DNA from: a virus
Taxonomy: Duplodnaviria; Heunggongvirae; Uroviricota; Caudoviricetes
Reading direction: 5' to 3' (one strand)
DNA length: 10,335 bases
IMG/VR virus record: IMGVR_UViG_2609460059_000005
The notes below the pieces were generated by a model, which was not told the DNA's origin, searched no databases, and worked only from the letters and a program-made list of their open reading frames with translations. Below are positions 79-10,214 of the stretch, one piece after another. The first letter of the stretch is position 1. The number at the start of each line of letters is the position of its first letter. Made by a program: the position numbers and the translations under genes.

Positions 79-1059
79 TTAGAGATCTAAGCTCTGCTGT
101 GTTGGTTCTGCTCTCAGATTTAAATCTTCACTAAAAATATAATCCATAATTTCTTTCAATTCAGTTGGCATTAGAAAAGATAAAGATTTTCGATTTTCCT
201 CTGAAAAGCTCAATTCCGGTCTTAAATTATATGTATTAGGTAAGTACGGATTAGCAATTTTCTTCGAATATTTATAAGCATATTCAACTGTGTGAGCAGT
301 ACCGCTTTTTATCTTCCACTCCACAGGAATAAGAGATGTGCACAGCGCAGCTTGAATTCTATTGCGTCTTACAAAATTTTCAGCGCTATAAATTTGGTCA
401 GGCAAATATTCAGTGACAATTGCACCTCCGCTTAAAACTATTTGATTGTAGAGATTTTTAGATCCCTTGGGATATTCTACAAAAATCCCGTTACCTAACA
501 CTGCAATTGTAGGTATCCCATAACGAATAGATTCATAATGGCATGATTGGTCAATCCCAGTAGCTAAACCACTTACAGTAACTATATCTTTTTCATACAA
601 CCCAGATACAATTAGTTTAACCAGAAAAATGCCATCATCTGTTGGCTTTCGCGTACCAACGATTGCAATTGATTTCTTATTAAGAATATCTTGATTCCCA
701 TGAACAAAAAGCCAAAAAGGAGGATCACTTATATTCTTTAAATTAGTTGGGAAAGTAGGTTGATCAAAAAAGGTTAGAACAATTCCTTTTTTATTTAATT
801 CTCTCGCTCGTTCTAATCCTTTCGCCCACAACTCTTGTTGAAATTCCTCCCACGCGATATCTTTGGGTAACGCAACCCTTAGATATCCAGCCAAAGCATC
901 AGCTGAACTAGCTTTTAAAAGATTTTTAAACCCTAGTTTGGATTCGTATATTTTACGGAGAGTCCAATAACCAACACCTTTTAAGCAGGTCAACGCAAGA
1001 AATGCTATGATTTCATTTTTCCAAAACTCTCTAATTTCAGTGTAATCTTTATCTTCCAT
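79..1059 (-). CDS. DprA/Smf-like (SLOG/Rossmann-fold) protein, 326 aa, in AT-rich cargo DNA
   Basis: Provided ORF. N-terminal segment LALTCLKGVGYWTLRKIYESKLGF resembles the DprA SAM/HhH-like domain. Core has SIAIVGTRKPT, VSGLATGIDQSCH, TIAVLGNGIFVEYP, RRNRIQAALC and KSGTAHTVEYA, matching the DprA Rossmann-fold pattern from memory. Composition is much more AT-rich than the adjacent sid/delta/primase block. Confidence 0.65.
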   Translation of the reverse strand: MEDKDYTEIREFWKNEIIAFLALTCLKGVGYWTLRKIYESKLGFKNLLKASSADALAGYLRVALPKDIAWEEFQQELWAKGLERARELNKKGIVLTFFDQPTFPTNLKNISDPPFWLFVHGNQDILNKKSIAIVGTRKPTDDGIFLVKLIVSGLYEKDIVTVSGLATGIDQSCHYESIRYGIPTIAVLGNGIFVEYPKGSKNLYNQIVLSGGAIVTEYLPDQIYSAENFVRRNRIQAALCTSLIPVEWKIKSGTAHTVEYAYKYSKKIANPYLPNTYNLRPELSFSEENRKSLSFLMPTELKEIMDYIFSEDLNLRAEPTQQSLDL

Positions 1060-1448
1060 TTTTTTGCCTTATAGATTACAACTCACGCAATACTAATAAC
1101 AAAAATAATCATATTGTAGACATGTTATAAATAACATTTTAGCATCCATTTGTGAAGAGGCATCTTCTTACCTTTCCACGTTCTACAATCGCTAACTTAG
1201 TATGTCTTGTAACTCTTTTTGTCGTTTAACTACCATCCTCTCATACTCCCTGATTCCACTTATGAACCCAATCAATACACAGGCAGCAGTTTTTCTTCTT
1301 TCTGCGGTTGATAGAACGATATATCAGCTTTTGGTGGTACCAAAGATTCTATTCATAAATTTATCTCGCAAGTGATCAAACACACATACTCTTTCAACTT
1401 CTTTACTCAGCGCGCGCAGCCCCGCCCGCCTGCCCGCTTCGCTTAACA

Positions 1449-1580
1449 GAATGGTTTTCATGCACCCCGTAAATCGTCTCAGGAGCCGCCACACAAGGGC
1501 TTTCGCGTCAAAAACGGCGCATGAGACTCATGCGTTTTCATGCACCATAGACATGCACTCATGCGCTCTCAGGCCAGCCA
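1449..1580. repeat. Imperfect ~80-bp duplicated non-coding unit (GTTTTCATGCACC ... CTCAGG ... ACTCATGCG) with an internal palindrome CGCATGAG-A-CTCATGCG
   Basis: GTTTTCATGCACC occurs at about 1453-1465 and 1533-1545; ACTCATGCG at about 1522-1530 and 1556-1564; inverted repeat at 1513-1530. No ORF of 60 aa or more covers this segment. Confidence 0.5.
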
Positions 1581-1592
1581 GGAAAAAGGCGT

Positions 1593-1619
1593 AAAAAATC
1601 CCGGTACAGTACCGGGATT
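1593..1619 (-). terminator. Rho-independent terminator downstream of the Ogr/Delta-like gene
   Basis: Perfect 10-bp inverted repeat ATCCCGGTAC-a-GTACCGGGAT (1598-1618). On the minus strand it is followed by a run of six U residues (plus-strand A-run 1593-1598). It lies about 20 nt after the stop at 1640. Confidence 0.6.
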
Positions 1620-1639
1620 ACGTGGGCATTTTATGTTGA

Positions 1640-1912
1640 TCAGACAGGGATTTGCTGACGGCTTGATAACTTTGATGCAGAGCCATAGCGATTGAGCGTT
1701 TTCTTTTGCTTTTCAGGCTCTTCCGGTTCATCTGATTCCTGTTCATTGCGCCGGGGTTTCATAATTATCGTATCCACACTTTCCAGTGCGGTAAATGTGC
1801 AGGAACATTCAAGATTCTGGCACTGATACCATGAGCGTTTAACCGATGGTGCTTCATAGGCGGAGGTTCTGGCGTGTGCCGTAGTGCCGCATTCGGGACA
1901 TTTAAGTGCCAT
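1640..1912 (-). CDS. Ogr/Delta-family zinc-finger late-gene transcriptional activator (P4 Delta-like, single domain), 90 aa
   Basis: MALKCPECGTTAHARTSAY...YQCQNLECSCTFTALES matches the C-x2-C ... AHARTS ... QCQN-x2-CS-x-TF signature of P2 Ogr / P4 Delta. SD GGAGG lies 7 nt upstream. Start overlaps the stop of the upstream gene (TGATG). Confidence 0.85.
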   Translation of the reverse strand: MALKCPECGTTAHARTSAYEAPSVKRSWYQCQNLECSCTFTALESVDTIIMKPRRNEQESDEPEEPEKQKKTLNRYGSASKLSSRQQIPV

Positions 1913-2673
1913 CAGATACCCTCCGCGGCTCGGTTACGTTTTTGCAGTTCTTCACGTTCCTGCCGGATCTTCATTTTATGAAGGGCCGCCGGAGAGGGAA
2001 GTTTGCGGAAATCAGCAAGGGCAGCATAATCCGGCGCAACACCTGCCAGTTTAAATACCGGGTCCTGTTCCGGCATCGCAGCGTTAGTAAGAGCCGGTTT
2101 GGTGATATGTTTGTGAATAAATTCTTTCAGTACTGTGTCCGGGTCATTAACTGAATTCACCACACCCACAACGGCACTGGCTTCCCGCCCCATTGTGGTT
2201 TTGAGCAGGCTCAGTGTCTGGATTAACGCCTTACCATGCGACTGCATGAAGTCTTCCCAGATTTGCTTTGCGCGAATTTCCACAAGGGTGTTATGTGCGC
2301 TGATATACTGCCCGGCTAATTTCCCGGCCTCCTGCGGTAATAAGGCATTTTCGCTTTCCTGAGCTGCCAGCAGTTCATCAAAATCCTCAAGCGTTTCTCG
2401 TCCCAGCGCAATTTCCGTGCGCAGTTTTTTCATTTCCTTTGAGACTACGCCCTGACTTTCACGAAACAGCGTGCGCCATTCCTCATTCAGCGCGTTAGTC
2501 GTGGCTTCCATTTCAGCGCGGCGCTGGCGGATTGTCGCAATATTATCTGCTGCCGCTTTTTGCTGACGACGTGCTTCAAGCCATGCGTTTCTGGTTGTGT
2601 TCAGGGTTTCCAGTGCCCGCTGCGTTACAGCCGGAAAAGTGGAAAGGCTGGTATTCTCTGCGGTGTTGTTCAT
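1912..2673 (-). CDS. Putative Sid-like capsid size determination (external scaffold) protein, 253 aa
   Basis: Provided ORF with SD AGGAG 6 nt upstream. Alpha-helical, charged, low-complexity composition. Immediately precedes and is translationally coupled to the Ogr/Delta homologue, as in the P4 sid-delta pair, and size is close to P4 Sid. Family assignment rests on context and recalled similarity, not a search. Confidence 0.5.
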   Translation of the reverse strand: MNNTAENTSLSTFPAVTQRALETLNTTRNAWLEARRQQKAAADNIATIRQRRAEMEATTNALNEEWRTLFRESQGVVSKEMKKLRTEIALGRETLEDFDELLAAQESENALLPQEAGKLAGQYISAHNTLVEIRAKQIWEDFMQSHGKALIQTLSLLKTTMGREASAVVGVVNSVNDPDTVLKEFIHKHITKPALTNAAMPEQDPVFKLAGVAPDYAALADFRKLPSPAALHKMKIRQEREELQKRNRAAEGI

Positions 2674-2706: not shown

Positions 2707-2726
2707 TTGTGTCGTGGCTGACACAA
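2707..2726. promoter_or_regulatory. Dyad-symmetric element TTGTGTC-N6-GACACAA upstream of the sid-like gene
   Basis: Perfect 7-bp inverted arms at 2707-2713 and 2720-2726. It contains TGT-N12-ACA, the pattern described for Ogr/Delta-activated late promoters of P2/P4. Its centre is only about 43 nt from the sid ATG, closer than the canonical -55 position. Confidence 0.35.
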
Positions 2727-3073: not shown

Positions 3074-5746
3074 TTAACCCGGCACCTCGCTGTTGAAGAC
3101 ATAGAGTCTGCGGGGATTCATCTCTGGCGGGCGAATGGTTGTCTGTAGCTTGCCATCGGTGGAGGGCAGCAGGTATCCACGATCCGCGCACAAACGCGCC
3201 ACCTTGCGCGGGTCAAATCCCCGGCAGATTTCTTTCCAGCCGGACGGCATGACGTAGAACGTGGTGACGGCTTCCGTGCCCTGCGCGGTACTCCCTTTCT
3301 CCACCCTGCGCCAGCCCACCATATTGCCGGGGCGGTTGCGCTCGTCGTGCCAGTCTGCAAAGCGGCTGTACTGATTCGCGGTAAAGAAACTGCGTACCTG
3401 CTCCAGCGCGGCAATATCTTCCTGATTGGCAGTATGCCCGCGATCTTTCAGCCATGCGTTCAGGCAGACGCGGGTTGCCCGCAGGGCTTCTCCCTCAGGC
3501 CAGCCGGTGATCCCCATACGGGTTGCCAGCTCGCCCGCCATCGCCACCAGTGCAAATCGGTTGACGGCCCGGCCCACCTGATTACCCGCATCTTTCGGGG
3601 TCAGCGCGGCGGTATATTCCTTCATCAGTGACTTTGCCTGTGACGTCAGCCCGTTAAGGTCAGCGGTCAGGGCTTTCAGCCACTCCCGGAACGGCGAACC
3701 GTAGTAGCTGGACGTGGCCCACTCCAGATGTTCCGCCAGTGCCTTGCCGCTGTCGAAGCCGTGCAGCTCCTCAAATACGCCAAATTTCCCGGAATCGCTG
3801 GGGATCTGGATCATCCTGACTTCCATCCCGGCAAAGGTACGCTCACCAGCTTTTGCCGCATGTTCGGTCAGTGACAGCTCGCCGGTTGAAAAGAACAGCA
3901 GCCGCCACTGCTTACGGGTGCGCAGCTCACCGTCCGTACCGGCACGGCCCTTGCCCTGACCGTTTGCCAGCATGTAGGCGATATTGCCTGCCTCGCGTCC
4001 GTCCACCTCCCGGATCTCATCGAGCATCATGGCGGCATCGTTGCGGCGGCTGGCGCATCCCTCCAGCGCGTTGCCGGTTGCCCGCCACGTCTGCCAGTAG
4101 TCAGGCCCGCCGCAGACGGAGGTTGCCGCTTTCATTGTGGTGGTCTTACCGTCCGTCGATTCCCCCTTGAGGTGATAGCCGCCGCCGTCCATACCAACCA
4201 ACCGTAACAGGGGGGCAGCAAACGCCAGACTGACGGCAAACGCCACGCGGGAGTTGCCGGTGCAGTAGCGGGAAACGTGCTCCCGCCATTCCTCCGTTGT
4301 GCCCGACACGCGGAAATCGCGACCCTGCACGGAAGTGGTCTGGAGAATGACACCCTCTGCACCTTCACCGCTGACCTCATCCTGCAGGACGTAAACCTGA
4401 CCATGCCAGCCGGTGCGGCTGACGCAGGTCACGCGGCGTTCCGGTTTACAAAGAGAGATATATTCCATAAGGCGTGCGCGGGCCTCACCGGTGGTGCTGA
4501 TATAGGACAGCCCGTTGACCAGCAGTACCCGGCGCAGCTCCTCACCGCTGCCGCTCAGCATTTCCATCGGCATCGCCCAGCGGCGGCGCTCACCCCACGT
4601 ATCTTCCCACTCCAGCAGTCGCCCGAAGTTACCGCCATCAGCATCGCAGGTGATTGCCGTTACGCGCAGCGGGTTGCATATTTTGACGTTCTGGATTTCC
4701 GTTTCACCGTTGCGCTGTACCTGTTTTTCATACCAGAGATATTCCTGGGTTAGACGGAACCCGTGCGGCAGTTGCGTGCGGCCCTCCCCGCACAGCACCA
4801 GACCGTTGCGAAAGGCTTCACGGGCACGGTTAATACCGTGCTCCCGATGGAAATCATTCCAGTCGGCCTTGATCTCTCCCGGTGGCAGCGTCATCCAGCC
4901 GCCAACGGCTTTTGCCGCCCGTTCAGCAAAAGATCTGCCGGGATTCTCGCCCCCGTCCTGAAAATCGTTATCACCGGCGATGATAATTTTTACCTCAGGC
5001 CAGCGTGCCCGCAGCGCCTGTGCGACGTTGGGCAGGTTGCCAGCAGATATGGCAGCCACTACGCATCCGGCGGTGATCTGGCTCACCGTCAGTGCCGTGG
5101 CGTAACCTTCGGTAATCACCACCTGTACCGGTGGTTCAGACGGTAACGGGCTGAGCGCCACAAACGCGCCTTTCATCGTGCTGCCGGGCAGTATGCTTTT
5201 TTCACCCGTCGGGGCGATAAGCTGCGCACCGGTCACGGCTCCAGCGTTGGTCGTGAGCGGTAGCAGCAGGGAGCCGGCAGGGAAATCCTTACCGCTGATA
5301 TGCTGCACGCTCCCGGTCAGGGGGGCCGGGTATCCGGCGAACCCTTTTCCGGTCAGATAGGGGCTTTCTCCCGTATGGCTCTCTTTCATCAGCGCCGCCA
5401 CGGTAAGGTTCATGTCGCGTTTAGGAGCTTTTTGCCTGGCGGGCTTAACGGGCAATTTCTGCACATCCGGAATATTAAGCACCTGCGCCACCTCCTGCGC
5501 GGCCTTTCTGACACCGTAACCGGTCATGAGCTTAACCAGATCCAGACCATCACCATTGCCGCACTGGCTGCAAATCCACGTCCCGCGCCCGTCAAGGTCA
5601 TCGAGGCGAAAACGATCCTTGCCCCCACATTTCGGGCAGGGACCGTGTCTGCCGTTTTCAGGTACATCAATACGCAGCATCTGCAGAATGACGGGCCATT
5701 TCCCCCGCGCGGCGGCTGAAATCTGCGTAACCGTCTGTGTTGTCAT
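3074..5746 (-). CDS. Primase-helicase (P4 alpha-like): N-terminal Zn-ribbon, Toprim domain, C-terminal Walker A/B NTPase; 890 aa
   Basis: Zn-ribbon CPKCGG...CSQCGNG. Toprim motifs VVITEGYATA and IIIAGDNDFQDGGENPGR. Walker A GESTDGKTT and Walker B-like MMLDEIRE. SD GGGGGA upstream. Start overlaps the stop of the upstream ORF (ATGA). Confidence 0.9.
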   Translation of the reverse strand: MTTQTVTQISAAARGKWPVILQMLRIDVPENGRHGPCPKCGGKDRFRLDDLDGRGTWICSQCGNGDGLDLVKLMTGYGVRKAAQEVAQVLNIPDVQKLPVKPARQKAPKRDMNLTVAALMKESHTGESPYLTGKGFAGYPAPLTGSVQHISGKDFPAGSLLLPLTTNAGAVTGAQLIAPTGEKSILPGSTMKGAFVALSPLPSEPPVQVVITEGYATALTVSQITAGCVVAAISAGNLPNVAQALRARWPEVKIIIAGDNDFQDGGENPGRSFAERAAKAVGGWMTLPPGEIKADWNDFHREHGINRAREAFRNGLVLCGEGRTQLPHGFRLTQEYLWYEKQVQRNGETEIQNVKICNPLRVTAITCDADGGNFGRLLEWEDTWGERRRWAMPMEMLSGSGEELRRVLLVNGLSYISTTGEARARLMEYISLCKPERRVTCVSRTGWHGQVYVLQDEVSGEGAEGVILQTTSVQGRDFRVSGTTEEWREHVSRYCTGNSRVAFAVSLAFAAPLLRLVGMDGGGYHLKGESTDGKTTTMKAATSVCGGPDYWQTWRATGNALEGCASRRNDAAMMLDEIREVDGREAGNIAYMLANGQGKGRAGTDGELRTRKQWRLLFFSTGELSLTEHAAKAGERTFAGMEVRMIQIPSDSGKFGVFEELHGFDSGKALAEHLEWATSSYYGSPFREWLKALTADLNGLTSQAKSLMKEYTAALTPKDAGNQVGRAVNRFALVAMAGELATRMGITGWPEGEALRATRVCLNAWLKDRGHTANQEDIAALEQVRSFFTANQYSRFADWHDERNRPGNMVGWRRVEKGSTAQGTEAVTTFYVMPSGWKEICRGFDPRKVARLCADRGYLLPSTDGKLQTTIRPPEMNPRRLYVFNSEVPG

Positions 5747-6126
5747 ACTTCCCCCTGATGCAGCGCCACACCCGTGCTGCAGAAGTCATCAAAGGCCGCC
5801 GGAAGCGTGCGGTACAGCTCCGCCATCACTTCACAGCCGCGCACAGTCAGTACCGGCGGCGCGGTCAGCAATGATGGTTCCAGCATGTCAGTCAGCAGCG
5901 CCAGCGCCGCCGCTGCTCCCTGTGCTTCGCCATATTCGTTAATCAGTGCGCACTCAATATGCAGGGCAATGGCCATTTCAATACGTTCAACCGTCAGGCT
6001 GTGCGGACCATATTGATCGCAGCCGGTTTCAGTCAGCGCTTTCTGGCGCCATGCCGATGCAATAGCCCGCCGGTAAAGCGCAGTAGTCATTTCTGCCGGA
6101 AAAATAGAAACCTGCGGCTGGTTCAT
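5743..6126 (-). CDS. Hypothetical protein, 127 aa, in the primase operon
   Basis: Provided ORF. Strong SD AGGAGG 7 nt upstream. ATGA start/stop overlaps with both neighbouring genes indicate translational coupling. Confidence 0.6.
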   Translation of the reverse strand: MNQPQVSIFPAEMTTALYRRAIASAWRQKALTETGCDQYGPHSLTVERIEMAIALHIECALINEYGEAQGAAAALALLTDMLEPSLLTAPPVLTVRGCEVMAELYRTLPAAFDDFCSTGVALHQGEV

Positions 6127-6407
6127 TGGGTGCCTCCTTCAATCAGTGCGCAACTGTGTGCAATATCCGTCAAATCTGCCCGCAGGTACTCCATCAGCGC
6201 GGCAATGCCTGGCGCACAGCCTGCATCCAGCGTTCCGCCCTGAGACGGGTATTCAGAAAAGAGAAGCTGGAGCATGTCGCAGGCATTTCTTGCGCGAGTC
6301 AGCTTTCCGAAACCGTCCTCTGACAATCCATAGGCAAAAGCACCAGTATTGTGTTTTTCAGGCAAAGTGTGGCCCTGAGCACTGTTGTGCCCGTTTGAAA
6401 AATTCAT
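6123..6407 (-). CDS. Hypothetical protein, 94 aa, in the primase operon
   Basis: Provided ORF. SD GGAG upstream. Stop overlaps the start of the next gene (ATGA). Confidence 0.55.
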   Translation of the reverse strand: MNFSNGHNSAQGHTLPEKHNTGAFAYGLSEDGFGKLTRARNACDMLQLLFSEYPSQGGTLDAGCAPGIAALMEYLRADLTDIAHSCALIEGGTQ

Positions 6408-6438
6408 CGTGGATTACTCCGTTTTCAGCGGTGTTTTG

Positions 6439-6792
6439 TCAGAGAAACTTTGAATAGTGACTGTCGTCAGGTTCAGCAGAACGCCGTATGCTGCGCTCCC
6501 GCCAACGGGTAAATACCACAGACGGATGTAGTGTCAGAGAGCCACTACCGCCCTTCGGAGCTGGCGAAGGTTTAAAGAGCGGCGCATCAAACAGGCGCGT
6601 ATACCGCTGTTCAAACCATGCCAGAGGGCAGGAAGAAAGCTGGTTGTCGCTGTCATGACGTATCAGCACTTCACAGCTGAATTCAGGATTAACCAGCGCC
6701 ACGGAGGGCGAGGCTTCAATTAATCGGATGATTGTGACGGTCCAGCCACGTTCATGCTGCCAGCGTTCGCCGGGTTGCGGATAATTATGCAT
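6439..6792 (-). CDS. Hypothetical protein, about 117 aa, in the primase operon
   Basis: Start set at the internal Met (MHNYPQPGERW...) because GGAGGTG lies 5-6 nt upstream of it; the first ATG of the provided ORF at 6822 has no SD. Confidence 0.5.
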   Translation of the reverse strand: MHNYPQPGERWQHERGWTVTIIRLIEASPSVALVNPEFSCEVLIRHDSDNQLSSCPLAWFEQRYTRLFDAPLFKPSPAPKGGSGSLTLHPSVVFTRWRERSIRRSAEPDDSHYSKFL

Positions 6793-6961
6793 GTTCACCT
6801 CCGCAGGGAATGCGACCGGCAAAGCTCAGCACGTAGTCCGGGGCCAGTCTGCGCCGCGCTGAGCGCTCGTTATCTGCGGTGATCCTTAACATCACAGGAC
6901 AGGCATTGCGTTGACTGCGGTTGATCGCAGCAAATAACCAGGTACACTTCTTTTTAGCCAT
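6785..6961 (-). CDS. Small basic protein, 58 aa, first gene of the primase operon; possibly Icd/Ash-like
   Basis: Only the C-terminal part of the provided 245-aa ORF is taken as coding: ATG at 6961..6959 is preceded by GAGGAAACGAAG (SD GAGGA). Sequence is MAKKKCTWLFAAINRSQRNACPVMLRITADNERSARRRLAPDYVLSFAGRIPCGGEHA. The Icd/Ash-like label is from memory of small P4-type proteins and is weak. Confidence 0.4.
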   Translation of the reverse strand: MAKKKCTWLFAAINRSQRNACPVMLRITADNERSARRRLAPDYVLSFAGRIPCGGEHA

Positions 6962-7051
6962 CTTCGTTTCCTCATACAGCGGATTGGTCAGAGGCCCGGT
7001 TAGTGTTGCTGCACTGCCGGGCTTCGCCTTTTTCACCCTAGAACACTCAAG

Positions 7052-7130
7052 GTGTGGCCCACTATAAATATTAGGTGTGGCCCACGTCAATGCTTTTCTT
7101 TGTTCTTTTCCCGTGTATACTGTGGCCCAC
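7052..7130. promoter_or_regulatory. Divergent promoter region with three copies of the palindromic operator-like motif (G)TGTGGCCCAC
   Basis: GTGTGGCCCAC at 7052-7062 and 7075-7085, TGTGGCCCAC at 7121-7130. The core GTGG-C-CCAC is dyad-symmetric. Minus-strand sigma70-like promoter: -35 TTGACG (complement of 7085-7090) and -10 TATAGT (complement of about 7061-7066), with copy 2 in the spacer. Plus-strand -10 TATACT at 7115-7120, with copy 3 at the predicted start site. Confidence 0.5.
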
Positions 7131-7151
7131 CAAACATACGGAGATTCAGTA

Positions 7152-7337
7152 ATGGCTACCGGTACAAAGAATGCTAAATCACAAGCCTTAAAGGCACGAG
7201 TGCCACATGACGTAGTTGAAGCGATGGAAATGGTGAAAGAAGAGGACGAAAGTACGTCACAATTCATCATTACATCCATGCAAAGTGAGATCAAACGCCG
7301 CCAGCGCAGGAAAGTTAAGCCAGAGCAAGGAGGCTGA
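7152..7337 (+). CDS. Small putative DNA-binding regulator, 61 aa, ribbon-helix-helix-like
   Basis: Start taken at the internal ATG at 7152 with SD GGAG 8 nt upstream. Sequence MATGTKNAKSQALKARVPHDVVEAMEMVKEEDESTSQFIITSMQSEIKRRQRRK has a strand-helix-helix pattern. The operator repeats lie just upstream, suggesting autoregulation. Confidence 0.5.
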   Translation: MATGTKNAKSQALKARVPHDVVEAMEMVKEEDESTSQFIITSMQSEIKRRQRRKVKPEQGG

Positions 7338-7401
7338 ATAGAGAAGCTAACAGACGTTCTCTCAGGCTCCATGCTAATTTCAGTAAGCGACAATATTTTT
7401 A

Positions 7402-7433
7402 AGCCCACAAACTCAATATGTCGGGCTTTTTTA
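7402..7433 (+). terminator. Putative rho-independent terminator between the convergent small regulator and alpA
   Basis: AGCCC...GGGCT hairpin at 7402-7426 followed by TTTTTTATT. Sits between two convergent genes and may act in both directions. Confidence 0.4.
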
Positions 7434-7664
7434 TTAGTGATTTGCATGCCGTTCACCACGAGAGGCATATATTTGCTCTTGAATCCAGTGATCGACTTCG
7501 CTTTCAACAAATGAAATTGCACGAGTTCCTATTTTTACTGGGCGGGGAAATGTATTATTTGAAAGCTGTTTGTAAAGCCATGCCTTGCTACGCTGAACGC
7601 GTCTTAACACCTCTTTTGCTGAAATAAGAGTCTGATTATCTGAAAGGTTGTTTGCATATTCCAT
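7434..7664 (-). CDS. alpA: AlpA/Vis-family phage transcriptional regulator (excisionase-like HTH), about 76 aa
   Basis: Start set at the internal Met (MEYANNLSDNQ...) with SD GGAG 8 nt upstream. LISAKEVLRRVQRSKAWLYKQLSNNTFPRPVKIGTRAISFVESEVDHWI matches the AlpA-family pattern. Gene lies near a P4-type integrase, as is typical. Confidence 0.75.
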   Translation of the reverse strand: MEYANNLSDNQTLISAKEVLRRVQRSKAWLYKQLSNNTFPRPVKIGTRAISFVESEVDHWIQEQIYASRGERHANH

Positions 7665-7928
7665 CTTGTTACTCCGTGTTCTACTTAAGTTCACGGTGAC
7701 TTTAAACACTGAAAAAAAGTGATTCTAGTGATAATGGAATCTATTAATACAAACGCTGATTCTATTGAAACGTGATAGTTTCTACTGAAAAAAGAAATAA
7801 TGTTCATATGAAAGAACACGAGAAGAGGAAAACGCACAACAAAATAAAATCAATAAAATTCATATAGATAGCATTGCAGCACAAACAAATCATACGTTAG
7901 AAGGTATTATTGCGTTTTATCGATTCAT

Positions 7929-8000
7929 ATTACTCAGGGATTACCACAGTATTACACTGTATTACCCTCTATAGCCCCTTAGAGCCTCTTGTAGCCCCTT
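7929..8000. repeat. Helically phased short repeats: ATTAC four times at 10-11 bp spacing, then three tandem 10-bp units (ATAGCCCCTT / AGAGCCTCTT / GTAGCCCCTT)
   Basis: ATTAC at 7929, 7940, 7951, 7961. Tandem units at 7971-7980, 7981-7990, 7991-8000. Located in the AT-rich spacer between the 212-aa gene and alpA. Confidence 0.45.
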
Positions 8001-8033
8001 CTAATGAGAGATATACAGATAGTAATAATAAAT

Positions 8034-8672
8034 TCACTCTCCGTATTTTATAATGTCTTTCCCCAGCTTTATTTTCTTATAGAACGTAGCTTTTTTAACT
8101 CCTTTCAATAGAATCTCATTCTCATTACAAAAAGAAACAATATCATTATATATAACACTATTATCGCTATAATTTCCCTTTCCATGTTTCTTAAGCAACT
8201 CAATTAGTAAGTAAATTAATTTACAACTATAATTATCCTCATCATCTTTTCTGTACTGCCCTCTGCCATTACTCCTTAACTTTTTACCAACTTCATATAA
8301 TTCACTTCCTCCTAGCATCATTAAAATATCGCCCCAATCTTTATTTTTTACTTGTTGTTGCAATGCGTTCTCAATTCTTTCCTTAATTTCAGGAGGTACA
8401 ATATCTTCCCTCTGAAAGATATAAGCGGCAGTTAATACTAAATTCGCCTCCACTTTTTGCGTGGCGGATATGTTTTTATATTCATTAATCAATTGTAGAT
8501 TTCTGGTTATTGCCTTTCTTAACCGAATAACCTCTTTTAATTGAATATCAGTCAATTCATCATTTTCGGTATCATAGTCAAAACCATTCATAGCAAGCGC
8601 CACTTCGTGCGGCGTAATGTACGTTAACCTATTAAAATAAAACAAATTATTATCAGATTGAGTGTTATTCAT
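8034..8672 (-). CDS. Hypothetical protein, 212 aa, AT-rich orphan gene between integrase and alpA
   Basis: Provided ORF. Strong SD GAGGAG 8 nt upstream. Starts 30 nt after the integrase stop. Clearly more AT-rich than its neighbours. No recognisable motifs. Confidence 0.65.
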   Translation of the reverse strand: MNNTQSDNNLFYFNRLTYITPHEVALAMNGFDYDTENDELTDIQLKEVIRLRKAITRNLQLINEYKNISATQKVEANLVLTAAYIFQREDIVPPEIKERIENALQQQVKNKDWGDILMMLGGSELYEVGKKLRSNGRGQYRKDDEDNYSCKLIYLLIELLKKHGKGNYSDNSVIYNDIVSFCNENEILLKGVKKATFYKKIKLGKDIIKYGE

Positions 8673-8702
8673 TTGAATCTCTCCTCAGTACCACAATGGT
8701 AA

Positions 8703-9965
8703 TTATTTTCCATGCACACGCGCAAAATCATATGGTGTGATAGATCCATTCTTGTTAGCATCAATGTAATCAGCCCACCATTGCAGCATTAATTTTCTTT
8801 CTTCAAGATATTCAGAAGTATGCATATATGAACCTTTCACGTTTTTTCGTTCAACGTGACTTAGCTGTCTTTCAATGGCATCATCATTCCATAGTTTCGA
8901 CTCACTTAGCGCACCACGCGCCATAGTTCTAAAACCATGCCCACATACTTCTGTCTTCGTATCATATCCCATTACACGTAAGGCGCTATTTACAGTATTT
9001 TCACTCATAACTTTTTTAGGATCATGATCGCTGGGAAATATAACCTCGCCTTTACCGCTCAAGGCATGTAAACGTTTAAAAATATCAAATGCTTGTTTGC
9101 TAAGCGGAACAATATGTTCAGTTTTCATCTTCATCCCACGCTCAGAGTGTTTTACGCCGGGAATAGGTTTACGAATTCCGGGTATCGTCCACTCGCTTCG
9201 TTCAAAGTTAACCTCACTCCAGCGAGCAAAACGCATCTCACTTGAACGAATAAATGTGAGTAGCGTTAATTCAACGGCAAGCCGTGTCATTAGTCGCCCT
9301 TTATAGCGTGATAGTCTTTCAAGAAACTCAGGGATTCTTTTTGGGGGTAGTGCTGGGTGATGGGTTGCCTTAACGCTTAAAAGCGCTCCAGCCATATCAC
9401 TGGCAGGATTTGATTCAAGAAGGTCATTCTGCACACCGAAACGCATAATTGCGGTTACGCGCTGCATCAGTCGCTGCGCAACATCATGTTTACCTGCCGC
9501 ATCAACAGCTTTGATCGGATTGAGAAGCTGGCTGGTTCTCAACATTCTGGCGTCAATTTGACCTATCGAGGGGAAAATATACTGCTCAAGCGTCAGCAGA
9601 ACGCGACGGCTATGATCTTCGCTCCAAGTTAGGTTACTTGCGTGCCATTGCCTTGCGATAGTTTCAAATAAATATGCCCCCTCAATTTCAGCTTGTGCCC
9701 CCTTTTGCTCAGCTTTGGGGTCAATGCCCTGAGACAACAATTTCTTTGCTGCATCACGCTTACCCCGAGCCTCAGCCAAAGTGATCGTCGGGTATACACC
9801 AAAAGCGAGCCGATCTTCCTTTTTGTCAGATGGGCGGCGATATTTCATGCGCCAATACTTGGAACCTTTTGGGGAGACTTCAAGATACAAGCCGCCTCCA
9901 TCAGCCATTTTATAGGCTTTCTCTTTCGGCTTTGCGGTCTCTATCTGGCGAGCATTGAGTTTCAT
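8703..9965 (-). CDS. int: P4-type tyrosine integrase (site-specific recombinase), about 420 aa
   Basis: Start set at the internal Met (MKLNARQIETAKPKEKAYKMADGGGLYLEV...), a typical P4-family integrase N-terminus. C-terminal catalytic region has HGFRTMARGAL and the Y-containing KGSYMHTSEY. Gene is adjacent to, and co-oriented with, the tRNA-Leu 3' end. Confidence 0.9.
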   Translation of the reverse strand: MKLNARQIETAKPKEKAYKMADGGGLYLEVSPKGSKYWRMKYRRPSDKKEDRLAFGVYPTITLAEARGKRDAAKKLLSQGIDPKAEQKGAQAEIEGAYLFETIARQWHASNLTWSEDHSRRVLLTLEQYIFPSIGQIDARMLRTSQLLNPIKAVDAAGKHDVAQRLMQRVTAIMRFGVQNDLLESNPASDMAGALLSVKATHHPALPPKRIPEFLERLSRYKGRLMTRLAVELTLLTFIRSSEMRFARWSEVNFERSEWTIPGIRKPIPGVKHSERGMKMKTEHIVPLSKQAFDIFKRLHALSGKGEVIFPSDHDPKKVMSENTVNSALRVMGYDTKTEVCGHGFRTMARGALSESKLWNDDAIERQLSHVERKNVKGSYMHTSEYLEERKLMLQWWADYIDANKNGSITPYDFARVHGK

Positions 9966-10019
9966 TTTGGGGGCACAAATCCTGATCGAATTGACATGCC
10001 CCCGATTATGCCCCCAAAA
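9965..10019. promoter_or_regulatory. Inverted repeat TTTTGGGGGCA ... TGCCCCCAAAA flanking the integrase start and 5' leader
   Basis: 11-bp arms at 9965-9975 and 10009-10019, with an extra TGCCCCC at 9997-10003. The left arm abuts the int ATG (9963-9965). No strong SD precedes the int start. Confidence 0.35.
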
Positions 10020-10129
10020 GAGGGTAGACCACAAGAGACCAACAAAGACCATGAAATACGGTAACTTGCTTGTTTTTAAGGATTTTTTCTGGATTTGTAG
10101 ACTTCAGGAAACGTCAAAAGAAGTGTTAA

Positions 10130-10214
10130 TGGTGCCGAAGGCCGGACTCGAACCGGCACGTATTTCTACGGTTGATTTTGAATCAACTGCGTCTACCGAT
10201 TTCGCCACTTCGGC
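10130..10214 (-). tRNA. leuX: tRNA-Leu (anticodon CAA), leuX-type
   Basis: Reverse complement reads GCCGAAGTGGCGAAATCGGTAGACGCAGTTGATTCAAAATCAACCGTAGAAATACGTGCCGGTTCGAGTCCGGCCTTCGGCACCA. It has a 7-bp acceptor stem, a CAA anticodon in a 7-nt loop, a long variable arm, a GGTTCGAGTCC T-arm and a CCA end. Confidence 0.9.

What the first reader, a model, noticed from the sequence alone, without database searches (positions are those of the whole stretch)
1390..1640. psu-equivalent position is non-coding: GC-rich cos-like tract, an ~80-bp duplicated unit with a palindrome, and a terminator
After delta, where P4 carries psu and then cos, there is no ORF of 60 aa or more. Instead there is a strong terminator, a duplicated unit (GTTTTCATGCACC ... 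ACTCATGCG) containing the palindrome CGCATGAG-A-CTCATGCG, and a G/C tract whose minus-strand reading GGCAGGCGGGCGGGGCTGCGC loosely resembles the P2/P4 cos core GGCGAGGCGGGGAAAGCAC as I recall it. This may be a divergent packaging site, a small RNA locus, or a protein-binding array.
Basis: partly seen in the sequence, partly recalled or inferred. Interest (0 to 1): 0.45.

Follow-up and report, generated by a model that had tools for sequence, protein, structure and literature searches.

The report
Satellite phage DNA-packaging (cos) site
The stretch is the DNA-packaging (cos) site of a P4-like phage satellite, preceded by the terminator of its late genes; this is a known kind of element in a sequence variant found in about one E. 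coli genome in six.

Summary
Window 1406-1640, read on the minus strand, is the end of a P4-like satellite's sid-delta late operon followed by a P2-family cos site. After the delta stop (1640) the order is:
- an intrinsic terminator (1593-1619);
- a GGTGCATGAAAACC box (1453-1466);
- a G/C-rich core (1410-1435);
- an abrupt switch to AT-rich variable cargo, here ShosA.

The 55-bp cos core matches P2 and P4 at 36/55 without gaps; the next best 55-mer in the window scores 28. An HMM built only from P2-like phage cos-flanking DNA hits the motif array at the right offset (E = 1.8e-9). The same region occurs in 857 of 5426 complete E. coli genomes.

The predicted 19-nt cohesive end, GGGCAGGCGGGCGGGGCTG, differs from the P2/P4 end and from the Fels-2-type end. 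One P2-like prophage carries the same core. Its terminase is essentially identical to that of prophages with the Fels-2-type core.

The element does lack psu. In its relatives psu sits between sid and delta, not after delta, so the delta-cos interval is not an emptied psu slot. I found no support for a small RNA, a small ORF or a replication origin. Verdict: real and functional-looking, but an ordinary member of a known kind.

The parts
1593..1619 (-). Intrinsic (Rho-independent) terminator of the sid-delta late operon: AATCCCGGTAC-TG-TACCGGGATT followed by TTTTTT.
   Evidence: RNA fold -15.8 kcal/mol, z = -4.4. It lies 21 nt after the delta stop. In 20 satellites the hairpin is kept with a changed sequence, for example CCGGC/GCCGG or CCCCGCGG/CGGGG: 3 pairs change on both sides and 81% of cells are paired.
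1517..1566 (-). GCATG-motif array, inferred to be the cosB-like terminase-binding region. Minus strand: GCGCATGA-GTGCATGT-CTATGGTGCATGAAAAC-GCATGAG-T-CTCATGCGC.
   Evidence: GCATGA is clustered here: 5 of 10 window matches fall in 107 bp. The block is nearly invariant in 20 diverse satellites. An HMM from 71 distinct P2-like phage sequences hits 1570-1528 at E = 1.8e-9 and at the same offset from the box. The block aligns with P2, P4, 500465-1, MLG42 and RE-2010.
1518..1534 (.). Palindrome CGCATGAG-N-CTCATGCG, that is, one GCATGA motif and its inverted copy.
   Evidence: I4. The GCATGA/TCATGC arms never vary in 20 satellites, and two sequences carry a GC-to-CG swap at the innermost pair. P4 has an analogous inverted GCATG pair. 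The P2-like phages inspected have only direct copies.
1508..1548 (-). Second hairpin plus T-run (ATGGTGCATGA...TCATGCGCC GTTTTTG), formed by the direct and inverted GCATG motifs. It may be a back-up terminator or simply a by-product of the motif array.
   Evidence: Terminator-like site. RNA fold -16.1 kcal/mol, z = -3.4. The T-run is conserved in satellites and phages.
1467..1516 (-). Moderately conserved spacer between the motif array and the box.
   Evidence: In P2-like phages the equivalent spacer holds a GC-rich hairpin.
1453..1466 (-). GGTGCATGAAAACC box, the left end of the 55-bp cos core (P2 has GGTGCATTAAAACC, P4 has CTGCATTAAAACC).
   Evidence: GTGCATGAAAAC is invariant in the satellite alignment, but GCATGAAAAC was a selection criterion for that set. 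In one search most of 126 sites with this box, a 37-nt gap and GCGCGC lie in IMG/VR contigs that carry a P2 portal homologue.
1410..1464 (-). Equivalent of the 55-bp P2-family cos core.
   Evidence: Ungapped identity is 36/55 to P2, 36/55 to P4 and 37/55 to RE-2010. The window-wide mean is 13.6, sd 3.4, and the next best is 28. The 55-bp core concept comes from Ziermann and Calendar 1990, as cited in PMC5694545 and PMC9594776.
1417..1435 (-). Predicted 19-nt cohesive end, GGGCAGGCGGGCGGGGCTG, placed in register with the P2/P4 nick sites. A gapped, homology-based register would give 1412-1430 instead. The nick positions are inferred, not shown.
   Evidence: The register follows the flanks shared with P2, P4 and RE-2010. 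Conservation among 20 satellites ends exactly after ...GGGGCTG. The gapped match to the Fels-2-type core is 20/21.
1406..1416 (-). Right flank CGCGCGC-TGAG and the boundary with the variable cargo.
   Evidence: Homology to 660-857 E. coli genomes stops at about 1403-1413. GC drops to 0.35 to the left of it. (C/T)GCGCGC follows the 19-mer in P2, P4 and RE-2010.
1640..1912 (-). Context: Ogr/Delta-like late activator gene (90 aa).
   Evidence: Pfam Ogr_Delta 3e-16. Matches both halves of P4 Delta.
1912..2673 (-). Context: Sid-like capsid-size protein gene (253 aa). Its stop overlaps the delta start, and there is no psu.
   Evidence: 24% identity over the full length of P4 Sid. PHROG 6165 at 2.7e-92. 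90% identity to the Sid of E. coli AMSCJX03, where psu follows.
79..1059 (-). Context: cargo gene in the cos-adjacent defence hotspot, ShosA (DprA-like).
   Evidence: PADLOC ShosA 1.1e-89. Pfam DNA_processg_A 1.1e-57. A hotspot next to cos is described in PMC9122126.

Best explanation
This is the cos (cohesive-end) packaging site of a P4-like satellite integrated at tRNA-Leu(CAA), immediately downstream of the terminator of its sid-delta late operon.

Proposed mechanism:
1. When a P2-like helper phage is active, its terminase (homologues of gpM and gpP) recognises the GCATG motif array and the GGTGCATGAAAACC box on the late-operon side. This is a cosB-like role.
2. The terminase makes staggered nicks in the G/C-rich core, a cosN-like role. 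The predicted product is a 19-nt 5' overhang, GGGCAGGCGGGCGGGGCTG, at 1417-1435.
3. The satellite genome is packaged into helper capsids made small by Sid.
4. After injection the ends anneal and the DNA circularises.

The terminator at 1593-1619 stops late transcription before it reaches cos. The DNA just beyond the core is the known variable defence hotspot, here carrying ShosA.

Shown: homology, position, polarity, conservation, and the terminator structure with covariation. Inferred: terminase binding to the GCATG motifs, the exact nick positions, and which helper phages can act.
For: 1. Alignment with true cos junctions. The box, the GCGGGC...GGCGGGG core and the GCGCGC flank are shared with P2 and P4, whose records start and end at the cohesive ends. 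They are also shared with three P2-like phages, where the match lies between the replication genes and the portal gene. The 36/55 ungapped identity is 6.5 sd above the window background.
2. Independent profile test. An HMM built from 130 nt upstream of the box in 71 distinct portal-linked phage contigs hits window 1570-1528 at E = 1.8e-9. That sequence was not part of the search pattern. The hit lies at the same distance from the box, about -104 to -62.
3. The architecture 'box, 17 nt, 19-mer, NGCGCGC' recurs at 126 sites in the loci fetched up to that point, most of them in IMG/VR contigs with a P2 portal homologue.
4. Same order and polarity as P4: late operon, terminator, GCATG motifs, core, cargo.
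5. Conservation. The 176-bp region is present in 857 of 5426 E. coli genomes at mostly 90-95% identity. The motif blocks are invariant even in satellites whose Delta is only 45-63% identical. Homology stops at the core, where unrelated cargo begins.
6. A P2-like prophage in E. coli Z1323PEC0014 carries the same core about 150 bp from its portal gene.
7. The literature places a cos site and a defence hotspot at exactly this position in P4-like satellites (PMC9122126, PMC8628076).
Against: - No experimental ends are available, so the nick positions and the 19-nt overhang rest on alignment only.
- Only 11 of 19 positions of the predicted cohesive end match P2/P4. An ungapped and a gapped register give predictions 5 nt apart.
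- Only one helper-type prophage with this exact core turned up among 5426 E. coli genomes. The usual helper therefore probably has a different core, and cleavage of this core by such helpers is unproven.
- The element lacks psu, so it could be a decaying copy. By my own recollection, not checked here, psu is dispensable for P4.
- The invariance of the core 16-mer, and of GCATGAAAAC within the box, in the satellite alignment is partly by construction, because those loci were retrieved with those sequences.
Confidence: 0.9

Rival explanations
1. A relic or plain intergenic spacer: only the terminator works, and the cos-like sequence is a decaying remnant in a defective, psu-less element.
For: The element lacks psu. 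Only about 9 E. coli genomes share its sid-delta junction. No packaging data exist.
Against: The cos blocks are intact and match the consensus of 20 satellites at essentially every invariant position. This window's region is 88-99% identical to copies in 857 genomes. Psu-less P4-like variants form conserved clades and rarely show psu pseudogenes (PMC8628076).
Confidence: 0.06
2. A small-RNA locus: the hairpins at 1508-1548 and 1593-1619 belong to a short transcript.
For: Two stable hairpins with T-runs lie on the minus strand.
Against: No Rfam family matches the region at E <= 1. No promoter-like site lies in 1390-1640; the only one found in 1000-2000 is at 1117-1145 on the plus strand. The first hairpin follows the delta stop by 21 nt, as expected for the operon terminator. 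The second is built from motifs whose arms never vary, so there is no structural covariation. The same motifs occur as direct repeats without a hairpin in P2-like phages.
Confidence: 0.02
3. Iterons of a replication origin bound by the satellite's alpha primase-helicase, like P4's ori and crr repeats.
For: A short motif is repeated five or six times in about 110 bp. P4 has repeat-based ori and crr elements.
Against: The same array lies next to cos in P2-like phages that encode no alpha. It is also present in satellites with two different alpha types, one 73% and one 35-37% identical to P4 alpha. P4's annotated ori and crr repeats lie beside alpha and upstream of sid, not at cos.
Confidence: 0.01
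4. A small protein-coding gene, for example ORF 1451-1594 on the plus strand (47 aa).
For: The frame stays open in most homologues. A Yersinia phage record annotates a 47-aa hypothetical protein across its cos region.
Against: The start codon is replaced by CTG, TGG, TAT or CAG in most homologues, and several carry frame-changing length differences. The annotated phage ORF is on the opposite strand.
Confidence: 0.01

Closest known systems
cos site of satellite phage P4 (NC_001609, junction 11624/1)
   Same: Same position and polarity: late operon, hairpin terminator built partly from GCATG motifs, (C/G)TGCAT(T/G)AAAACC box, G/C core, GCGCGC, then non-essential cargo. 36/55 identity in the 55-bp core. 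Both elements sit at a tRNA-Leu gene (the P4 leuX site is from my own knowledge).
   Different: Only 11 of 19 positions of the cohesive-end core match (GGGCAGGCGGGCGGGGCTG against GGCGAGGCGGGGAAAGCAC). In P4 the upstream gene is psu; here it is delta. P4's operon order is sid-delta-psu; this family's is sid-(psu)-delta.
cos site of helper phage P2 (NC_001895) and the 55-bp core of Ziermann and Calendar 1990
   Same: GGTGCATTAAAACC box, spacing to the core, TGCGCGCTGA right flank and an upstream GCAT(T/G) array. The variable hotspot lies on the GCGCGC side (PMC9122126, PMC5694545).
   Different: 36/55 identity only. P2's upstream motifs are GCATT/GCATG with no inverted copy. In P2 the site lies between old and the portal gene Q.
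Fels-2-type cos of P2-like phages (Salmonella RE-2010, E. coli 500465-1, Yersinia MLG42, and the E. coli ECONIH5 and FDN-24 prophages)
   Same: This is the closest phage relative of the whole region. GTGCATGTCTATG..GCATGA..GCATGA, the GTTTTTG run, the GGTGCATGAAAACC box and AAGCGGGCAGGCG(T)GGCGGGG are shared, the last at 20/21 when gapped.
   Different: Relative to the flanks the central block is displaced: +5 nt on the left (AAGCG repeated), -1, and about -4 on the right. The box-to-GCGCGC distance is preserved, but the predicted 19-mer differs (GGCGTGGCGGGGATACGAG against GGGCAGGCGGGCGGGGCTG).
Phage lambda cos (cosN nicking site plus cosB terminase-binding repeats)
   Same: It works alike by inference: a nicking core flanked on one side by repeated short motifs that would bind the small terminase subunit.
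   Different: No sequence homology was tested or expected. Lambda has 12-nt ends and R-sites with an IHF site. Here terminase binding to the GCATG motifs is only inferred.

Membership tests
P2/P4-family cos site | Sequence homology to the 55-bp conserved cos core | tested here: met
   36/55 (P2, P4) and 37/55 (RE-2010) ungapped; the next best 55-mer in the window scores 28, with mean 13.6 and sd 3.4. The central block matches the Fels-2 type at 20/21 when gapped.
P2/P4-family cos site | Conserved flanking architecture: an upstream GCATG array at about -105 to -62 from the GGTGCAT(G/T)AAAACC box | tested here: met
   A phage-only HMM hits 1570-1528 at E = 1.8e-9 with the same offset. Alignments.
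P2/P4-family cos site | Genomic position: downstream of the late operon in satellites, between the replication genes and the portal in phages, and abutting the variable hotspot | tested here: met
   Homology stops at 1403-1413. Literature: PMC9122126.
P2/P4-family cos site | Cohesive-end sequence shared with a helper phage | tested here: inconclusive
   One P2-like prophage (E. coli Z1323PEC0014) has the identical core. None of the portal-linked IMG/VR contigs sampled does. The phages collection contained no close match to this cos: best 68-82% identity.
P2/P4-family cos site | Terminase cleavage giving 19-nt 5' cohesive ends, and packaging by a helper | not testable with these tools
   Needs virion DNA end mapping or a transduction assay.
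P4-like satellite (core genes as in PMC8628076 and PMC13586616) | Integrase, AlpA, alpha primase, Sid and Delta present | tested here: met
   Integrase, primase (Zn-ribbon, Toprim, DUF927) and Ogr_Delta by Pfam. Sid by PHROG 6165 at 2.7e-92 and an excisionase/AlpA-like ORF at 7434-7709 by PHROG 66 at 2.5e-8. P4 alpha N-terminus 37% identical.
P4-like satellite (core genes as in PMC8628076 and PMC13586616) | Psu present | tested here: not met
   tblastn with P4 Psu finds only the Sid paralogue. Compared with E. coli AMSCJX03, the 578-nt segment holding psu is absent. This corresponds to the published psu-less Type B variants (PMC8628076).
Rho-independent terminator | GC-rich hairpin followed by a T-run just after a stop codon, with the structure conserved across relatives | tested here: met
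   -15.8 kcal/mol, z = -4.4. 3 pairs change on both sides and 81% of cells are paired across 20 satellites.
Known small-RNA families (Rfam 15) | Covariance-model match in 1390-1640 | tested here: not met
   No match at E <= 1. The only hits in the window are the tRNA and a sub-threshold symR-like hit at 6956-7028.

The most novel reading that the evidence does not exclude
The 19-nt cohesive-end core may not be what determines which terminase can use a P2-family cos site. This core variant is carried mainly by satellites: 857 E. coli genomes hold the window-type cos region, against one helper-type prophage found with this core. That prophage's terminase is essentially identical to the terminase of prophages with the Fels-2-type core. 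If both prophages are viable, recognition must rest on the flanking GCATG array and box, whose spacing has been kept by compensating indels. Satellites would then keep a 'private' cohesive end that cannot anneal to their helper's DNA. The mosaic cos of the Z1323PEC0014 prophage and the portal gene captured by two satellites would be traces of exchange at cos.
Probability: 0.3. Interest if true: 0.4.

Novelty: new member of a known kind. Interest (0 to 1): 0.2.

Why it matters
The finding fixes the packaging site and therefore one physical end of the packaged satellite genome. It also marks, to within a few bases, the boundary between the conserved satellite backbone and the defence-gene hotspot. 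That helps in delimiting satellites and their cargo in genome annotation. The core variant and the conserved GCATG array give concrete targets for testing what P2-family terminases actually recognise, and for predicting which helpers can mobilise which satellites. None of this changes the established picture of P2/P4 biology.

Tried and rejected
- An 80-bp duplication. The repeat search shows only short motif repeats of 13-18 nt at spacings of 80 and 31 bp. The intervening DNA is not repeated.
- A small RNA. No Rfam match in the region.
- A small ORF. The start codon is not conserved.
- Alpha-binding iterons. The array travels with cos, not with alpha.
- An Ogr/Delta-type late promoter (TGT-N12-ACA) inside the region. 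None is there; the two dyads lie upstream of sid at 2708-2763.
- A core variant exclusive to satellites. Rejected after finding the Z1323PEC0014 P2-like prophage with the same core.
- The 253-aa protein as a Sid-Psu fusion made by deletion. It is 90% identical to a relative's Sid over 245 aa, and its C-terminus does not match that relative's Psu.
- The genome-contig scan with the bare 19-mer. It mostly returned chance hits in high-GC genomes. Only Scandinavium, Pseudocitrobacter, Citrobacter and Enterobacter soli gave real satellite loci.
- The paper by Ziermann and Calendar (1990). It is not held in the library, so the 55-bp core is cited second-hand.

Full report
**Context.** The window carries a P4-like satellite on its minus strand.
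- tRNA-Leu(CAA) lies at 10130-10214.
- Then come an integrase (8703-10052) and an excisionase/AlpA-like ORF.
- Next is an 890-aa primase with a zinc-ribbon, Toprim and DUF927 domains (3074-5746).
- Then a 253-aa Sid-like protein (1912-2673) and a 90-aa Ogr/Delta protein (1640-1912).
- To the left of the finding lies AT-rich DNA (GC about 0.35) encoding a DprA-like protein (79-1059) that matches ShosA of the ShosTA defence system at 1.1e-89.

**The observation.**
- No ORF of 60 aa or more lies between 1390 and the delta stop.
- The terminator is real. On the minus strand AATCCCGGTAC-TG-TACCGGGATT plus TTTTTT (1593-1619) folds at -15.8 kcal/mol with z = -4.4.
- The consensus scan missed this terminator and instead reported the palindrome at 1518-1534 with its T-run. 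I think this is because the A-T extension of the stem uses up part of the T-run, but I did not test that.
- The palindrome and the repeated 13-mer GGTGCATGAAAAC (1454-1466 and 1534-1546) are exact.
- There is no 80-bp duplicated unit. The recurring element is a GCATG(A) motif. Five of the ten GCATGA matches in 10.3 kb fall within 1458-1564, and one more motif, GCATGT, lies among them.

**What it is.** I aligned the minus strand of 1370-1660 with three kinds of reference: the true cos junctions of P2 and P4, whose records begin and end at the cohesive ends; the regions that a distant BLAST search found in three P2-like phages; and three P2-like E. coli prophages. Homology runs over about 170 bp. 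The shared elements, in order, are:
- an array GTGCATG-N6-GCATGA-N4-GCATGA;
- a GTTTTTG run;
- a spacer;
- the box GGTGCAT(G/T)AAAACC;
- 17 nt ending in AAGCG..GC;
- a G-rich 19-mer;
- (C/T)GCGCGC.

In the phages the match lies between the replication and DinI genes and the portal gene, which is the cos position in P2. Over the 55-bp core defined by Ziermann and Calendar (cited in PMC5694545 and PMC9594776) the window scores 36/55 against P2 and P4 and 37/55 against RE-2010, without gaps. The window-wide mean is 13.6, sd 3.4, and the next best 55-mer scores 28.

**Independent test.** A scan of IMG/VR for 'box, 37 nt, GCGCGC' returned more than 120 contigs. Combined with the loci fetched earlier, this gave 126 sites, most of them in contigs that also carry a P2 portal homologue. 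Their 19-mers are GGCGTGGCGGGGATACGAG or close variants. I built an HMM from only the 130 nt upstream of the box in 71 distinct portal-linked contigs. That sequence was not part of the search pattern. The HMM hits window 1570-1528 on the minus strand at E = 1.8e-9, at the same distance from the box as in the phages.

**Conservation.**
- The 176-bp region is present in 857 of 5426 complete E. coli genomes, mostly at 90-95% identity. Homology ends at window 1403-1412.
- In 20 distinct satellite copies from IMG/VR and four other enterobacterial genera, the motif array and GTTAAGYGAAGC are invariant or nearly so. Some of these copies have Delta only 45-63% identical, and some have the other alpha type.
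- The core 16-mer and the GCATGAAAAC part of the box are invariant by construction, because they were used to retrieve or select the loci.
- Sequence identity ends right after ...GGGGCTG. A semi-conserved CGCNCGC follows, and then unrelated cargo. The closest relative, E. coli AMSCJX03, carries a retron there instead of ShosA.
- This matches the published description of a defence hotspot directly adjacent to cos in P4-like satellites and P2-like phages (PMC9122126, PMC13586616).

**Structures.**
- The terminator hairpin keeps its pairing while its sequence changes: 3 pairs change on both sides, and 0 of 500 shuffles reach the observed covariation score.
- The palindrome arms GCATGA/TCATGC never vary, so they say nothing about structure. 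They look like a sequence-specific site present in direct and inverted copies.
- Together with a neighbouring direct copy they can form a second hairpin followed by GTTTTTG (-16.1 kcal/mol).
- P4 has an analogous hairpin made of inverted GCATG motifs after psu. The phages examined have only direct copies.

**The core variant.**
- In register with the shared flanks, the predicted cohesive end is GGGCAGGCGGGCGGGGCTG (1417-1435). It matches P2/P4 at 11 of 19 positions.
- By homology the central block matches the Fels-2 type at 20/21: AAGCGGGCAGGCG-GGCGGGG against AAGCGGGCAGGCGTGGCGGGG.
- That block is displaced relative to the flanks by +5, -1 and about -4 nt, so the distance from the box to GCGCGC is preserved. 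This gapped register would predict ends at 1412-1430.
- Only experiment can decide between the two registers.

**Which helper.**
- Every IMG/VR contig I found with this core in a cos context, where the carrier could be classified, is a satellite.
- The INPHARED phage collection holds no close match.
- One P2-like prophage, in E. coli Z1323PEC0014, has the identical core about 150 bp from its portal gene.
- Its large terminase subunit is 587/588 identical to that of the ECONIH5 prophage. Its endonuclease subunit is identical (184/184, same RefSeq protein) to that of the FDN-24 prophage. Both of those prophages have the Fels-2-type core.
- I infer that the same terminase can serve either core, so recognition lies in the flanks. 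This assumes both prophages are viable, which I could not test.
- The Fels-2-type 57-mer occurs in 1263 E. coli genomes and the P2-type in 2128. Candidate helpers are therefore plentiful.

**psu.**
- The element has no psu. tblastn with P4 Psu finds only the Sid paralogue.
- The 253-aa protein is a full-length Sid: 24% identical to P4 Sid over 241 aa, and 90% identical to the AMSCJX03 Sid over 245 aa.
- Relatives have the order sid-psu-delta-cos. Compared with AMSCJX03, the window lacks a 578-nt segment containing psu, and the sid stop overlaps the delta start.
- The delta-cos interval is therefore the same in relatives with and without psu. It is not an emptied psu slot.
- Psu-less P4-like variants are already described (PMC8628076). 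About nine E. coli genomes share this particular junction.

**Rivals.** Each of these is weakly supported.
- Small RNA: no Rfam match and no promoter-like site in the region.
- Small ORF: the start codon is not conserved.
- Alpha-binding iterons: the array follows cos into phages that have no alpha.
- A relic in a decaying element cannot be excluded without a transfer assay. Against it, every conserved block is intact.

**Verdict.** The region is a real, well-conserved P2-family cos site with its upstream terminator, in a P4-like satellite. The kind of element, its position next to a defence hotspot and the loss of psu are all in the literature. The particular core variant, and the observation that one terminase is linked to two cores, are modest additions. 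Interest is low, at 0.2.

Noticed in passing
L288:8433-11242 and L289:1463-4270 (IMG/VR contigs): Two satellites about 95% identical to the window carry a P2-type portal gene at the far end of their cos-adjacent cargo. It is 86% identical at the protein level to the Z1323PEC0014 prophage portal and is transcribed toward cos, as in P2. No large-terminase hit was found upstream. This looks like a helper-to-satellite swap at cos, which PMC13586616 reports to be rare.
   Followed up: partly
L305:5890-6060 (E. coli Z1323PEC0014, NZ_CP148268.1); L306 and L307 for comparison: A P2-like prophage has the window-type cos core but a phage-type right flank and its own left flank, so its cos is a mosaic. 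Its terminase subunits are 587/588 and 184/184 identical to those of prophages with the Fels-2-type core.
   Followed up: partly
window 1912-1955; L308:4086-4663: Relatives have psu between sid and delta (order sid-psu-delta, unlike P4's sid-delta-psu). The window lacks that 578-nt segment cleanly, with the sid stop overlapping the delta start. About nine E. coli genomes, including chicken and APEC isolates, share the junction.
   Followed up: yes
window 2708-2725 and 2746-2763: Two TGT-N12-ACA dyads (TGTGTCGTGGCTGACACA and TGTGTGGTGGCTGGCACA) lie just upstream of the sid start. From my own knowledge this is the spacing of Ogr/Delta-activated late promoters. They probably mark the promoter of the sid-delta operon.
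   Followed up: no
window 3074-10214: The gene order is co-directional: tRNA-Leu(CAA), int, alpA-like, repressor-like, DUF5375, alpha, sid, delta, cos. The integrase lies on the alpha side rather than beyond the cargo as in P4. PMC8628076 reports the integrase next to alpha in fewer than 1% of P4-like elements.
   Followed up: no
window 79-1059: The cargo gene is ShosA (DprA-like antitoxin of the ShosTA defence system). No partner ShosT gene lies between it and cos, so it is probably beyond the left end of the window.
   Followed up: partly
window 1417-1452 compared with Fels-2-type cos sites: Indels of +5, -1 and about -4 nt shift the G-rich block relative to its flanks but keep the distance from the box to GCGCGC at 48-50 nt. 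This suggests a spacing constraint between the two flanks.
   Followed up: partly
window 6956-7028 (+): A sub-threshold Rfam match to the SymR antitoxin RNA (24.9 bits against a gathering score of 61, E = 0.33) lies inside the 245-aa repressor-like ORF on the opposite strand. It is probably chance.
   Followed up: no
L002:1153-1296 (Yersinia phage MLG42, PP599993.1): The deposited record annotates a 47-aa hypothetical protein across that phage's cos motif array. It is likely a spurious gene call.
   Followed up: no
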